From Octopus vulgaris (lineage: Eukaryota), in the NCBI GenBank assembly GCA_951406725.2, contig OX597821.1, forward strand, positions 20,956,001-21,020,000: a DNA stretch of 64,000 bases. The letters are read 5' to 3'. Positions 24,039-64,000 of this stretch are shown here, in pieces. The stretch's first letter is position 1. Each line of letters starts with the position of its first letter. Made by a program: the position numbers and the translations under genes. The notes beneath the pieces were generated by a model that worked only from the letters and a program-made list of their open reading frames with translations, was not told where the DNA came from and searched no databases.

Positions 24039-24093
<55 letters not shown>

Positions 24094-24094
<1 letters not shown>

Positions 24095-24911
24095 ATTAAT
24101 CAATATAGGGTGGCAAAAAATTTCGCAGAATCTTTTTGCCACCAGCGGCCTAGTGGGGAAAAAATTAAATAGTCATAGACCATTTATAAATTCAACAGCA
24201 AAATCAAGGAACGGCCATAATAGGCCATTCACCCACTAGAAATAACAGCCAAGGCTTCAACCGCAAAACAACATTAATTCCGTAAACCAGGAGAAAATTA
24301 AAAAAACATTTACCCTGTAAATTTAATTTTCTCCTGGTTTACGGAATTAATGTTGTTTTGCGGTTGAAGCCTTGGCTGTTATTTCTAGTGGGTGAATGGC
24401 CTATTATGGCCGTTCCTGATTTTGCTGTTGAATTTATAAATGGTCTATGACTATTTAATTTTTTCCCACTAGGCCGCTGGTGGCAAAAAAATTCTGCGAA
24501 ATTTTTTGCTACCCTATATTGATTAATTATGAATTTTCTGGTTAATTCCGTAATGGAATCGGCGGCTTATATTTGCTGCCGATAAATTTGGCGCGAGTGC
24601 GATGATTTGAAAATTTTAGGTCAGATATTGCTGAGACACTGGTGAAAGTGCCTCGTGTAAATATCTGCTCCGACCTGGGCGTTCTTTACTGATGAATCTA
24701 TCGGCCTATGGAAGACTAGCTTGATTTAATTTAATCAGGTTAGTTTACCATTAAACAATAGAAGAAACGGTGCATCGTATAAAGAATTACAGGGTAAATG
24801 TTTTTTTAATTTTCTCCTGGTTTACGGAATTAATGTTGTTTTGTGGTTGAAGCCTTGGCTGTTATTTCTAGTGGGTGAATGGCCTATTATGGCCGTTCCT
24901 TGATTTTGCTG
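24094..24911 (+). mobile_element. Retrozyme-like / non-autonomous PLE-type element, 483-bp unit: inverted ~225-bp piece + 1.2 tandem units, in (TA)n
   Basis: CTCCTGGTTTACGG recurs at 24331 and 24814; 24094-24320 is the reverse complement of part of the unit; carries an HHR; no ORF. Confidence 0.8.
24682..24786 (+). ncRNA. Type I hammerhead ribozyme with extended stem II
   Basis: Stem I TTCTTTA/TAAAGAA; CTGATGA 24689-24695; GAAAC 24764-24768; near-palindromic stem III ACGGTGCATCGT; GTA cleavage triplet 24777-24779. Confidence 0.85.
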
Positions 24912-24912
24912 T

Positions 24913-28979: not shown

Positions 28980-31072
28980 TGCTGTATTTTGGGATGGTCT
29001 CTTTTTGCCACGTAACCACACGAACAATATAGACGCGCACGCTCACACAGATGAAGAAATATAGAGGGGGAAAAAGTGATAGATAGATAGACATATAGTT
29101 AGATATCTCCCTTTTGAGTCAGTGTCTTCACACATATGCTATTAAAATACATGCATGTTCAACTGACCCACATATTGAGTCAACGCGATATATACTACTT
29201 AATTTTGCTCGGTGCACACTACGATTTGACAAAGTCCAGCTCGGTGTTTGAAACCAGCCTGCATGACCAGAGAGTCGTCCATTATCTATTCGCCTATTAA
29301 CGACAAAGTAGCATTCAATACATCTCATTAGATATTTCAAGTTGCAAAGCTGGTTTATATTGTCATCAGGAGACTTATCCATCGATAATTTTATTGTCAT
29401 ACGATTGTCGCAGCAGAATTAATGGTATCAGTTGATAATAATTCTTTCTTGACAGAGTCCGTCATATGTGTTGCGAATTTCTCCGATGTAAGTTAAATTC
29501 TTCGGGACATAACAATTTCATGATCATTTTATATAGTATATCTAATGTATTACTGATTTCAAACTTTGGCACCAGGCTTGCAATTTTGAGGGTGGGTGTA
29601 CATCCATTACATCGACTCAGTTCTCCACTGGTACTCATATTATCGGCTATGGAAGGATGAAAGGCAGTCAACGTCGGTGAAATTTGAAATCAGACCATGA
29701 AGATGGGCGAAATACCACACAGTATTTTGCCCGGCGTGCTAACGATTTAGTAATAATAATACGTTATAGCTCATGTATTACTATTAAAGACAAAAAGACG
29801 CCGTGGATTGTTTGTAGACCGGCCAAAATGCTTCGCACCATTGTTTTCTTGGTTTACATTCTCAGTTCGAATTCAGCCAACGCTGAATTTGCTTGTCAGC
29901 TATTCGAAATCGATAAAATAAAAATTATCCGTGATCTGTGTTCAATGTACTCGACCACCACTCTTCCCGAAAATTTCAGCCCTTGTGCTTTTAAAAGAAA
30001 GAAATTTTAAAGATAGATAGAAATAAGAAAACTTCGTTATGCAAGTGAAACTGAGCACGTTTTCTTCCATTAACATGCCATATACTTACGATACACTAAT
30101 AAATGTTCTTTATCAATATATTCTGCATTTTTAAGACGCAATTAAACTTTACTCTCGATATTTCCTCACTGGAAAAAGTATCCCCTTGAGTGCTACATCT
30201 TTGTTCCCGTAATTTCAATTTTCATTTTCATGCTTAACTGGGATTTGATTGCGTTCTAACATATGAGAATTGCGTTCCATTATATTACAGAGACAGAAAA
30301 TATTTAATGTTAAATGTGGAAGAAATTGGATTTTTAAAAATATATATATATTTATTGACGAAACAACCTTCTTCCTTACTAAATAATTTTTTTCTTAAAT
30401 TCATTTAAGTATATATATCTTGCTAAATTATGTCTATTAAGATATCTACACAACATTCACCGTCTTTATCGCATTCGATAGACAAACATACACACGCATA
30501 TACGAACGAAAACATGCACGTGACACAAACAACAAAAAACACACACGCGCACACATACAAACACATTAGCCCCCCCACACACACACACACACGCATACAC
30601 ATATACATACACTTAAGATTTTAATAGATATGCATGATGAACCTTAACTAAAAGGAAGTTTATCAGCTGAAATTTTCAAATATTCTGAAGCGTATTGCAT
30701 TGATATGTATATAGGTATGTATGTATACATGCACACACACACACACACACACACATATGTGTGTTTGTATGTGTGCGTCTATGTAAATATACATGAATAT
30801 ATATATATATATCTTACTCTATCAGTTCTCTTACTGAACCGTATAGGGAGGGTGAAGTAAACACACACACACACACACATGCATATATATATATATATAT
30901 ATAACATAAGGGACTAAAGCCATCTGAATATGGCTAGGGACAGGGCAGGGTGGTGTTGGTGTTACTGTTGCATTTAGCCCCAGGCGAACATCGACGTCAC
31001 CAGAAAGGCTCGACACCGTCACGGTGCCCTTAACCTGCAAAGGGAGGTAATTCCCCGATGAAGCGGAAACCA

Positions 31073-31118
31073 CACACGGACCATGGTTTCAAGGTGTATT
31101 GCCTATCATCGGCGTGTG
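31073..31118 (-). ncRNA. Type I hammerhead ribozyme (U4C core variant)
   Basis: Reverse complement of 31530-31575. Confidence 0.8.
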
Positions 31119-31529
31119 GTAGGCCTCCGCTTCCTCGACGAATTCTCACTCTGCAGGATTTTCTTATATAGATTTTCAAGCAAAATACATTTGCTGATTT
31201 CGAAAATCTGTTCGAAAGCAATAATAATTCTCTAAGAGGGATATAGACAGTAACTGCTCGATAACATAAGGGACTAAAGCCATCTGAATATGGCTAGGGA
31301 CAGGGCAGGGTGGTGGGGTGTTACTGTTGCATTTAGCCCCAGGCGAACATCGACGTCACCAGAAAGGCTCGACACCGTCACGGTGCCCTTAACCTGCAAA
31401 GGGAGGTAATTCCCCGATGAAGCGTATTGCTTTCGAACAGATTTTCGAAATCAGCAAATGTATTTTGCTTGAAAATCTATATAAGAAAATCCTGCAGAGT
31501 GAGAATTCGTCGAGGAAGCGGAGGCCTAC

Positions 31530-31575
31530 CACACGCCGATGATAGGCAATACACCTTGAAACCATGGTCCGTGTG
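31530..31575 (+). ncRNA. Type I hammerhead ribozyme (U4C core variant)
   Basis: CACACG-CCGATGA-T-AGG-caataca-CCT-T-GAAA-CCATGG-TC-CGTGTG. Palindromic stem III ACCATGGT, GTC triplet 31567-31569; stem I extended by GAAGCGGA/TCCGCTTC. Confidence 0.8.
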
Positions 31576-31789
31576 TGGTTTCCGCTTCATCGGGGAATTA
31601 CCTCCCTTTGCAGGTTAAGGGCACCGTGACGGTGTCGAGCCTTTCTGGTGACGTCGATGTTCGCCTGGGGCTAAATGCAACAGTAACACCCCCACCACCC
31701 TGCCCTGTCCCTAGCCATATTCAGATGGCTTTAGTCCCTTATGTTATCGAGCAGTTACTGTCTATATCCCTTTTAGAGAATTATTATTG

Positions 31790-31853
<64 letters not shown>

Positions 31854-32753: not shown

Positions 32754-33056
32754 AAAAAGCCCGCCATTTACCGGATATATGATTTATAAACATTCCATGT
32801 GCTTGGCCGGAGTGAGCAGTTGTCTGTTCGTCTTCGCTACGTAAGGTTGGTAGTTTATTTATGATGTGTTCAGAATCAGTTCTGCTGATGATCATAAGAC
32901 GTAAGTTGAATGTGAAATCACGGTGATACAGAACTAAATTCATTTTTTAAATGTCTTGCTTTGAAAAACTGCATTTGGGTATGATTAGTATAATTTTGGT
33001 AGTAATGACTTTGTCCCTCTTAGTGTGAGGCATTTATGTGTAATAATGCCCTCTAT

Positions 33057-36499: not shown

Positions 36500-37062
36500 T
36501 ATTTATAAATAAGGATAATATCGATATTTAAATATCGCTATCATCAAGTGGCCAGCATAGGAATAAATACCATGCAAAGGTAACAATTATTTAAAATTAT
36601 AAATAAGGGTATCTTAGAGATTCCACTATGCCGAAATAGCAGTCAAAACCCTGACCCTAAAAACCACCTTAAATGTCCAAATCGCGCCATGAGATAAGAC
36701 AGAGAAACAAAATAAACTAGAAAAAAAGATTTTACTGCATAATTCAAGATCCTGGATTTCTGCCTTTGCTACAAATAAGCTCTGCCTTCGTCAGTTGAAT
36801 ATATCAGATGGGCAAATAAATAAAAAAATATATATATACAGAACATAAGTTATACTTACATAAACGAACGTCCATACATATATCATTATGCACGTATGTA
36901 CAAATTGCCCGCCAACCATCTCACAAGCGCGATATGGTCAAATATAAACACCGCAGTGAATACAGTGATGAATTATATTTTGAACATTTAATGTGTTTTT
37001 TAGGGTCAGCGTTTCGACAGTTATTTTGGCATGGTGATATCTCTATGATACACTTATTTATA

Positions 37063-37580: not shown

Positions 37581-37624
<44 letters not shown>

Positions 37625-37631
<7 letters not shown>

Positions 37632-38044
37632 ATATTTCGGAATGGTCATATTGCTAGTTTAGCCAATAAAAACACACGCACTATATATTTGGTGTTATTT
37701 TGCTTCAGTGATATTTATTTTTTACATTAATCTTAATCTTATTTCGGCTAAAGTTCCTTCGTCACACTCCTGTGACCGCATCAGTGGTCCTTTGTTTTCT
37801 TCTCACTTACTTGTGTCTCTCCTTACTAACCGTCTAACGGTTAGTAAGGAGAGACACAAGTAAGTGAGAAGAAAACAAAGGACCACTGATGCGGTCACAG
37901 GAGTGTGACGAAAGAACTTTAGCCGAAATAAGATTAAGATTAATGTAAAAAATAAATATCACTGAAGCAAAATAACACCAAATATATAGTGCGTGTGTTT
38001 TTATTGGCTAAACTGGCAATATGACCATTCCGAAATATAACAAT
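37625..38044. repeat. Near-perfect palindrome, ~208-bp arms, TCTAA loop, in (TA)n; HHR-like remnant at 37881-37924
   Basis: Arms differ at only about 2 positions by eye; CTGATGC-G-GTCAC-aggagt-GTGAC-GAAA within the right arm. Confidence 0.92.
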
Positions 38045-38099
38045 ATCTGTTTCAACACACGACTTCACATAAAAAATCTTGCACAACAAATATTTAAAC

Positions 38100-51904: not shown

Positions 51905-52450
51905 ACAAATGTCACTAAATGTGACTAGGGTATTAGAGAAACACTTACATTGCTAGAAAAAAGAGCTAAGCCGCTCTAGTGCTGTAGTTAACGCACATGA
52001 ATGAAAACACGCTAAGAGTGACCATAATTGTCCGAAAAGTGCCAATCGAGAAATCTTAAGACTGACACATCAGTTTTGGCAATTTCCTTTGCCTCATCTG
52101 TTAAGACAGCTCGTCTGTTCTGCTACTTCCGGGGTCGCTTCGCCATTAGTATTTATGCTTTCGCCATCCAAATATTGGGATGATTTAGCGATTCGCTAAT
52201 GTGTATATATAGAATTAATATAAACAATACTTTGTAATGTTTCACCAAAAAGAATTACAAATGTCACTAAATATAACTGGGGGGTGGGAGGGTAGGAAAC
52301 ACCAGCATTGATAGAAATAATAGCTAAACCGTTAGTGTATATGCTTTAACTAATGTGTATTAGCTACAGCATTAGAGCGGTTTAGCTCATATTTCTGGCA
52401 ATGTAAGTGTTTCCTAACACCCTTGGTACATTTAGGGACATTTGTAATTC
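51905..52450. repeat. Direct plus inverted repeat cassette (51905-51998, 52256-52335 direct; 52353-52447 inverted)
   Basis: ACAAATGTCACTAAAT...GAAACAC..CATTG.TAGAAA...AGCTAA.CCG occurs three times. Confidence 0.7.
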
Positions 52451-53057
52451 TCCTTTTAGGTGAAGCATTGCAACCAGCTGGTTATAATAATCTATTATAT
52501 AAATTCTGTTCTGTCTATGTGTGTGTCTTCTAGGATCTCGGGAAACCGCCATCCGATTGCGCTCGTACCGACGGTTTTAGGGCGTGTATAAGTCTTCAAA
52601 TTAATTACAAACGTCGATTCCAGGTGAGAATGCGATCGATAAAGCCGTGGGAACGTGCATTTGTAGCGCAAGTACACCAGCTGTTGCGATCGATACTACG
52701 CGTACGCGAGAAAAATCCACGTGCAGTTTGTGCAAAAGGCCTGCTGGCTTGAAATAATGCCACAAAATACAGTATATTTAAGAGAGCAAAAAGTAAGATG
52801 CAAAAGAGATATTTTCTTCAAACTTGCCATGAAGGAAGGAAAGACTATTTGTTTTTTTTGTTTTTTTTGCCTTAACTTCGTTTAACAAAATCAAAAATGT
52901 TATTGAAATAAAAGCATGTTTAATTATTTTCAAAAGAAAACACTGATTCCTTTTTATTTAACAGATATGATTCAGAACCGTGTATTGGACGGGTGGGCGT
53001 TTTGTTCCTGATACACACACACACTCACACACACACACACACACACATACACACACA

Positions 53058-63175: not shown

Positions 63176-64000
<825 letters not shown>

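What the first reader, a model, noticed from the sequence alone, without database searches (positions are those of the whole stretch)
30899..31790. 360-bp hammerhead repeat in tandem-plus-inverted arrangement, with a ribozyme on each strand
Seen: near-identical 360-bp units (about 1.45 on minus, about 1 on plus) between (TA)n tracts, with HHRs at 31073-31118(-) and 31530-31575(+). The core is CCGATGA, stem III is the palindrome ACCATGGT, the site is GUC, and stem I has a long extension. No obvious similarity to the 483-bp family. Inference: a young second retrozyme-like family. More than one permuted unit fits reverse transcription around a circular or tandem RNA followed by a strand switch.
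Basis: partly seen in the sequence, partly recalled or inferred. Interest (0 to 1): 0.75.

Follow-up and report, generated by a model that had tools for sequence, protein, structure and literature searches.

The report
Two-armed retrozyme with Penelope insertion footprint
This is one of hundreds of young copies of a 360-base protein-free repeat that carries a predicted self-cutting RNA fold, a known kind of jumping element; its copies sit as two back-to-back arms that stop at two fixed points, which suggests that a Penelope-type enzyme likely copies the RNA from both sides of one DNA cut.

Summary
Observation confirmed: 1.46 units (minus) joined head-to-head to 1.02 units (plus) in (TA)n, one type I hammerhead per arm. 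It is not an assembly artefact. The genome holds 1,219 exact copies of the ribozyme motif. Of 49 two-armed loci, 44 have one arm ending at site A (about 176 nt after the predicted cut) and the other at site B (about 221 nt). Insertions at non-TA sites carry 10-13-bp target duplications. The 45-nt offset is the 'tail' of Penelope-like elements (PLEs); two intact PLE families and the unrelated 483-bp family in this genome show the same pairing. So it is a non-LTR retrozyme, most likely moved by a PLE enzyme that primes once from each target strand, not by a strand switch. Arrays (up to 9 units) carry one haplotype in all units, which favours repeated reading of a circle; some uncut or cut linear templates also show. 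Two loci join 360-bp and 483-bp family sequence. The partner PLE was not found; cleavage and circles are untested; this locus cannot itself release a monomer. Known kind. The scan found this family and reading before on other DNA of this genome.

The parts
30883..30902 (.). left (TA)n target tract
   Evidence: sequence
30901..31424 (-). left arm, 1.46 units, unit position 14 to site A; 3' end (ribozyme sense) points outward
   Evidence: mapping; 4 differences from the right arm
30901..30903 (-). site A end (unit 176; the last AT probably comes from the target), inferred priming site 1
   Evidence: 53 of 111 arms end at unit 170-178; in L216 the final unit lacks the array's variant at 177
30918..30937 (-). 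short hairpin about 15 nt before site A (also 31278-31297 minus and 31711-31730 plus); a similar hairpin precedes the first end in the sister and 483-bp families
   Evidence: folds; role is inferred
31073..31118 (-). type I hammerhead, predicted cut after 31079
   Evidence: motif scan
31424..31425 (.). head-to-head junction of the two 5'-truncated arms, blunt
   Evidence: of 49 junctions 18 are blunt, 21 overlap by 1-8 nt, 10 have inserts
31425..31791 (+). right arm, 1.02 units, unit position 216 to site B
31504..31600 (+). extended stem I enclosing the ribozyme
   Evidence: folds
31530..31575 (+). type I hammerhead (U4C core, U10.1.U11.1, palindromic stem III), predicted cut after 31569
31746..31790 (+). 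45-nt 'tail' between site A and site B; ends at site B, inferred priming site 2
   Evidence: 54 of 111 arms end at unit 215-223; 78% identical in the sister family against about 60% for the unit
31791..31837 (.). right (TA)n target tract

Best explanation
It is one insertion of a young, non-coding 360-bp hammerhead repeat family (a non-LTR retrozyme) whose two back-to-back arms end at two fixed sites 45 nt apart, and it is likely pasted by the reverse transcriptase/GIY-YIG endonuclease of a Penelope-like element that primes once from each cut target strand. Steps: (1) inferred: arrays are transcribed, and the hammerhead cuts part of the RNA into monomers that a host ligase would close. (2) Inferred from 10-13-bp duplications: the enzyme nicks both strands of AT-rich DNA about one helical turn apart. 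(3) Pattern shown, mechanism inferred: one 3' end primes at site A and the other at site B, often on 1-4 nt of microhomology. (4) Inferred: each enzyme reads on through the cut site, up to 9 times, probably round a circle, at times along uncut or partly cut linear RNA. (5) Inferred: the two cDNA ends are joined bluntly or on microhomology, giving the head-to-head junction.
For: A+B pairing in 28 of 32 two-armed loci of the best-score sample and 16 of 17 in a second sample taken by position, with the prediction noted first; 44 A+B against 1 same-end locus, binomial p = 3e-12. Target duplications of 10-13 bp around the whole two-armed unit at L056, L295, L305, L341, L348, L354, L355. Same pairing in 4 of 4 two-armed loci of an intact 775-aa PLE family and 2 of 2 of a 781-aa family (RT and GIY-YIG by Pfam), and in 10 of 10 loci of the 483-bp family with both ends in view. 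In vitro a PLE cuts and extends both strands and starts at two internal sites that bound the tail (PMC11167929). 88 of 111 arms cross the cut site, 51 twice or more; 202 of 208 crossings are letter-perfect over 24 nt and the other 6 are substitutions. 74 of 83 variants seen in 2 or more units of a locus are in all its units; both arms agree in 16 of 17 informative loci. Neither arm fits inside the other in 7 of 44 loci, this one included. L230 has a 360-family arm ending at A joined directly to a 483-family arm ending at that family's second site.
Against: No autonomous PLE with a matching tail or ribozyme was found in the GIY-YIG and PLE loci examined, so the partner is inferred from geometry. 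Cleavage and circles are not shown; the ribozyme departs from consensus at U4 and at 10.1-11.1, and its active fold is 7.4 kcal/mol above the minimum-energy fold. 9 of 83 multi-copy variants are not in all units, and L064 has a variant only in the terminal unit of each arm, which fits a linear multimer better than a monomer circle. Arm lengths are uncorrelated (rho 0.06). The two 5' ends lie within 12 nt of each other in 7 of 44 loci against 3.3 expected (p = 0.04), so some fold-back is possible. In PMC11167929 start sites did not differ between strands and uncut RNA was the main template.
Confidence: 0.78

Rival explanations
1. Same PLE enzyme and double priming, but the template is mainly an uncut or partly cut linear tandem transcript; arrays regrow by template jumps or by DNA-level unequal crossover, and circles play no part.
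For: Weak ribozyme variant; L064 and L045 variant patterns; 3 arms start at unit position 2-3 and 12 of 111 within 16 nt of the cut against 5.3 expected, p = 0.007; uncut RNA is the main PLE template in vitro; the 2026 preprint favours local amplification by unequal crossover.
Against: Whole multi-variant haplotypes fill both inverted arms (L216: 12 units; L232: 9 units) while private substitutions are only 76 in 81,513 bases; crossings of the cut site show no indels, unlike end-to-end jumps; linear copying alone can only shorten arrays.
Confidence: 0.3
2. One priming, then fold-back or strand switch: the first cDNA self-primes and is copied, and the endonuclease resolves the second end at the tail (the first reader's idea; self-priming is proposed in PMC3846280, endonuclease resolution in PMC8557442).
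For: 37 of 44 loci allow the short arm to be a copy of the long one; slight excess of near-palindromic junctions, L210 a perfect one; variants symmetric about the junction in L045 and L063.
Against: 7 of 44 loci, this one included, cannot be built so; most junctions would need loops of over 45 nt; L230 has arms from two unrelated families; L064 carries its variant in the terminal, not the mirrored, unit.
Confidence: 0.12
3. Assembly artefact (chimeric fold-back reads) or a plain satellite rearranged at DNA level.
For: Palindromes are hard to assemble; the left arm of L050 looks noisy; this locus's own junction was not seen in four independent runs.
Against: Flanks are not mirrored, the two ends differ in a fixed way, target duplications bracket the unit, and the structure recurs on many chromosomes with different junctions.
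Confidence: 0.02

Closest known systems
Metazoan non-LTR retrozymes (coral, mussel 350-390 bp, axolotl 330/350 bp; PMC7229834, parts 2-4 of 6 read)
   Same: Tandem 150-450-bp non-coding unit, type I hammerhead in each unit, GC below 50% (47%), duplications longer than 4 bp; U.U at the base of stem II as in axolotl HHR_Amex2; PLEs proposed as mobilisers.
   Different: The parts read describe no two-armed insertions or fixed paired ends; cleavage and circles are shown there and untested here; core is U4C here.
Non-LTR retrozymes as non-autonomous PLE derivatives (bioRxiv 10.64898/2026.07.22.740005, parts 1-3 of 5 read, supplements not seen)
   Same: Same conclusion on the partner class.
   Different: That work rests on co-occurrence and pLTR homology in Xenopus and leans to local amplification; here no pLTR homologue was found, and the evidence is the insertion footprint, with arrays arriving ready-made.
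Endonuclease-bearing Penelope-like elements (PMC8557442 and PMC3846280, passages; PMC11167929, main text)
   Same: Partial tandem plus inverted 5'-truncated copy, tail on one end only, 8-10-bp duplications, (TA)n targets, two reverse-transcription starts bounding the tail.
   Different: No ORF; tail 45 nt against 30-40; whole element is the repeat unit; strict one-arm-per-site pairing was not stated in what I read.
Non-autonomous Chlamys elements such as MRC1 (PMC8557442, passage)
   Same: Non-autonomous PLE passengers with multicopy head-to-tail insertions.
   Different: They resemble their autonomous partner at the 3' end and belong to a group reported to lack canonical hammerheads.
L1 twin priming (recalled, no call)
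   Same: Both target strands prime, giving an inverted 5' part.
   Different: There the second priming site is variable and the first is the poly(A) end; here both are fixed internal sites and both arms can run for several units.

Membership tests
Metazoan non-LTR retrozyme | Tandem repeats of 150-450 bp | tested here: met
   360-bp period, arms of up to 9.1 units
Metazoan non-LTR retrozyme | Type I hammerhead in each unit | tested here: met
   motif in every unit; 1,219 exact 34-nt copies, control 0; no Rfam match at gathering score
Metazoan non-LTR retrozyme | No protein coded | tested here: met
   longest ATG-started frame 50 codons on either strand of the looped unit
Metazoan non-LTR retrozyme | Target duplication longer than 4 bp | tested here: met
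   10-13 bp at 7 two-armed loci and 1 single-armed locus; not readable at this locus, which lies in TA
Metazoan non-LTR retrozyme | Two consecutive ribozyme units (needed to release a monomer) | tested here: inconclusive
   met by 40 of 62 loci of the family, not by this locus, where each arm has one cut site
Metazoan non-LTR retrozyme | Self-cleavage | not testable with these tools
   indirect only: slight excess of 5' ends next to the predicted cut
Metazoan non-LTR retrozyme | Circular monomer RNA in cells | tested here: inconclusive
   closed 390-nt contigs in runs guessed to be RNA fit circles and tandem transcripts alike
Type I hammerhead | Core C3 U4 G5 A6 N7 G8 A9, G12 A13 A14, A15.1-U16.1, H17 | tested here: inconclusive
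   all met except U4C, a natural variant with lower activity (PMC3088659 passages); the sister family has U4; the only common core variant is at N7
Type I hammerhead | Stems I-III supported by comparison | tested here: met
   97% of cells paired, 3 pairs changed on both sides between the two families, slid controls 4-54%; 1 window copy and 7 hand-picked sister copies, so in effect one comparison
Autonomous PLE | ORF with RT and GIY-YIG | tested here: not met
   none in the unit
Non-autonomous PLE passenger | Tail on one end, inverted 5'-truncated copy, (TA)n target | tested here: met
Non-autonomous PLE passenger | Sequence similarity to the pLTR of an autonomous PLE | tested here: inconclusive
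   none to the 775-aa or 781-aa families (64 and 46 of 200 shuffles as high) or to other GIY-YIG loci fetched; only 150 of 6,136 GIY-YIG candidates were scored

The most novel reading that the evidence does not exclude
A Penelope-type enzyme dimer assigns one fixed RNA start site to each target strand and rolls round a ribozyme-made RNA circle from both, and it can load two unrelated retrozyme RNAs into one insertion, recognising them by shape rather than sequence. That would explain the PLE tail, the inverted repeats and retrozyme arrays in one step and name a testable enzyme-template pair.
Probability: 0.4. Interest if true: 0.7.

Novelty: new member of a known kind. Interest (0 to 1): 0.47.

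Why it matters
The element class is known and its link to PLEs is in print, but how PLEs make tails and inverted repeats, and whether retrozyme circles are the templates, is open. This very young family gives countable footprints: a near-strict one-arm-per-site rule, seamless multi-round arrays and hybrid insertions. They turn the dual-priming and rolling-circle ideas into direct tests with a 360-nt RNA and two intact PLE proteins from the same genome.

Tried and rejected
Rfam: 0 matches. Second ribozyme on the opposite strand: rejected, no stem I. Partner search: Pfam GIY-YIG search, 150 of 6,136 candidates scored; comparisons of the unit, tail, sister and 483-bp units with the loci fetched from it gave only separate neighbouring insertions; a tail-followed-by-other-sequence pattern (30 of 203 matches read, 18 more fetched) showed no partner ORF. 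Possible PLE-retrozyme hybrids at L072 and L110 were rejected: TA tracts or host DNA lie between. The 154-bp insert in L060 is a copy of DNA 1.4 kb away, not PLE sequence. RNA: no RNA holder listed; in runs only guessed to be RNA the unit assembles as one closed 390-nt contig (X3, X6, X7, X14), which does not separate circle from tandem transcript. This locus's own junction was not bridged by any listed contig; a hole proves nothing. A first motif scan with too strict spacing printed nothing; a first pair count used wrong columns and was replaced. Dropped rows: L050 (noisy left arm) from all counts; L221 also; L041 and L052 from the arm-agreement count as uninformative. Sampling limits: sample 1 is the 40 best-scoring of 761 candidates; sample 2 needs the start of the tail, so A/A loci with both arms under one unit would be missed; loci were picked on the B end and used only for duplications. 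Literature searches listed no paper stating the strict pairing or two-family hybrids; subscription papers and all supplements were not seen and may hold them.

Full report
Observation. The sequence is as described. A minus arm (30901-31424) and a plus arm (31425-31791) of a 360-bp unit meet head-to-head between TA tracts. I number the unit from the base after the predicted cut (31570 = 1). The minus arm runs from unit position 14 through one cut site to 178; the plus arm runs from 216 through one cut site to 222. Each arm holds one type I hammerhead. The unit folds far better than shuffles. Rfam does not detect it. The second CCGATGA on the opposite strand has no stem I and is not a ribozyme. 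Because each arm has one cut site, this locus cannot release a cut-to-cut monomer; 40 of 62 loci studied can.

Family. A search of the own genome (an animal genome of 2.8 Gb; octopus-like is my inference and the wording of earlier notes) gave 761 candidates, 40 scored, with units 98-100% identical in most rows shown. The 34-nt ribozyme core occurs exactly 1,219 times, control 0. Private substitutions are 76 in 81,513 bases, so the family is very young. An older sister family of about 60% identity (3,025 candidates) keeps the ribozyme with a canonical CTGATGA core, the same stem I, a changed but still paired stem II and a changed but still palindromic stem III. It keeps the 45-nt tail at 78%. 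The one common variant inside the core lies at the free N7 position. U4C and U10.1.U11.1 are known natural variants, the first with lower activity (PMC3088659, passages); the U.U base occurs in an axolotl retrozyme that cuts better as a dimer (PMC7229834).

The main pattern. I mapped 39 loci from the best-score list, the window included and L050 left out, then noted a prediction and mapped the 23 further family loci among the first 100 tail-pattern matches on one chromosome. Of 62 loci, 49 are two-armed and 13 single-armed. The 3' ends point outward and stop at site A (53 of 111 arms, unit 170-178) or site B (54 arms, 215-223); 4 stop elsewhere. In 44 of 49 two-armed loci one arm ends at A and the other at B; 1 is B/B-like, none A/A, and 4 have one end elsewhere. 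The 5' ends are scattered round the unit. At non-TA sites a 10-13-bp duplication brackets the whole two-armed unit, often overlapping the element ends by 1-4 nt. So both arms arrived in one event, and the inversion is not an assembly artefact.

What this pattern is. PLE insertions are described as partial tandems with an inverted 5'-truncated copy and a 30-40-bp tail at one end, with (TA)n targets for some clades (PMC8557442, passages) and 8-10-bp duplications (PMC3846280, passages). In vitro a lizard PLE cuts and extends both target strands and starts reverse transcription at two internal sites that bound the tail (PMC11167929, parts 1-2 of 4). This genome has two young PLE families with open 775- and 781-codon frames holding RT and GIY-YIG. 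Their two-armed copies show the same tail-less/tailed pairing, 4 of 4 and 2 of 2. So does the 483-bp hammerhead family, with a tail of about 100 nt, in 10 of 10 loci with both ends in view. No PLE with this family's tail was found.

Two primings or a strand switch. If the second arm were copied from the first cDNA, it should fit inside it and start near its end. In 7 of 44 loci, this one included, neither arm fits inside the other, and 26 of 44 have 5' ends more than 45 nt apart. There is a small excess of near-palindromic junctions (7 against 3.3, p = 0.04), so fold-back may make a minority. L230 joins a flawless 360-family arm ending at A directly to a 483-family arm ending at that family's second site. 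L061 has a 360-family arm ending at A opposite an arm that passes from 360-family into 483-family sequence and ends near that second site. Both obey the pairing rule across families. Both lie in TA, so no duplication can be read, and a later insertion with a target deletion is not excluded, above all for L061.

Circle or linear template. For repeated reading of one short template: 88 of 111 arms cross the cut site, 51 twice or more, up to 9.1 units; 202 of 208 crossings are exact and the other 6 are substitutions; 74 of 83 multi-copy variants fill all units of their locus, and the two arms agree in 16 of 17 informative loci. Against a pure monomer circle: 9 variants are not fixed, L064 carries one only in the terminal unit of each arm, and 5' ends are somewhat enriched just after the cut (12 of 111 within 16 nt against 5.3, p = 0.007; 3 at positions 1-3, p = 0.07), as if some templates were cut linear RNAs. 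That enrichment is more obvious in the 483-bp family. Arm lengths are uncorrelated. I put about 60% on circles being the main template. RNA data do not decide it (see Tried and rejected).

Comparison and verdict. The element meets every retrozyme feature that can be tested here (PMC7229834, parts 2-4 of 6). A 2026 preprint already argues that animal retrozymes are non-autonomous PLE derivatives (parts 1-3 of 5); its supplements were not seen. It is a new member of a known kind. What my searches did not list is the strict one-site-per-arm rule or the two-family hybrids. Earlier notes of this scan reached the same reading on other copies in this genome; I had stated mine before seeing them, and they are not independent evidence. 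Their short texts do not mention hybrids. Interest 0.47.

Noticed in passing
L230:2156-3728 (G000:C1:70526400-70531400) and L061:2402-4365 (G000:C3:23844300-23852300): Insertions that join 360-bp family and 483-bp family sequence, with ends that follow the pairing rule across families; 2 of 62 loci.
   Followed up: partly
window 24092-24912 and 63317-64000: Copies of the 483-490-bp family: type I hammerhead with a long stem II, two-armed, ends about 131 and 236 nt after the cut, so a tail of about 100 nt, longer than the 30-40 nt described for PLEs.
   Followed up: partly
L100-L115 and L260: Two young PLE families (781- and 775-codon RT/GIY-YIG frames), each with a second upstream frame of about 450-480 codons; the 775 family has a minimal hammerhead with a CCGAAGA core, and my scan found none in the 781 family's 3' region.
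   Followed up: partly
L116:6575-6818; L150-L179; L233-L249: Older sister families with the same tail and ribozyme layout; several subfamilies; L236 holds a 119-bp tandem of a tail fragment plus TA.
   Followed up: partly
L068, L221, L224, L280, L350: Arms with short stretches of a related subfamily's sequence, suggesting template switches or an intermediate subfamily.
   Followed up: no
L036, L210 (both arms), L212, window 31424: Five arms start at unit position 14, inside the stem I extension; noticed after the fact, possibly a stall or joining hot spot.
   Followed up: partly
L225 and L038: A variant in alternate units (period two), as a dimer template or a later duplication would give.
   Followed up: no
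window 37624-38046, 4746-4874, 52204-52501: Other near-perfect long palindromes, the first next to TA tracts; may be further two-armed PLE-type insertions.
   Followed up: no
window 32875-32940 (+) and 36740-36800 (-): Two further hammerhead-like motifs with long stem II.
   Followed up: no
window 31431-31790 laid on runs X14 and X15: Runs labelled as two other organisms hold the unit with 1-6 differences; labels are coded and were not examined.
   Followed up: no
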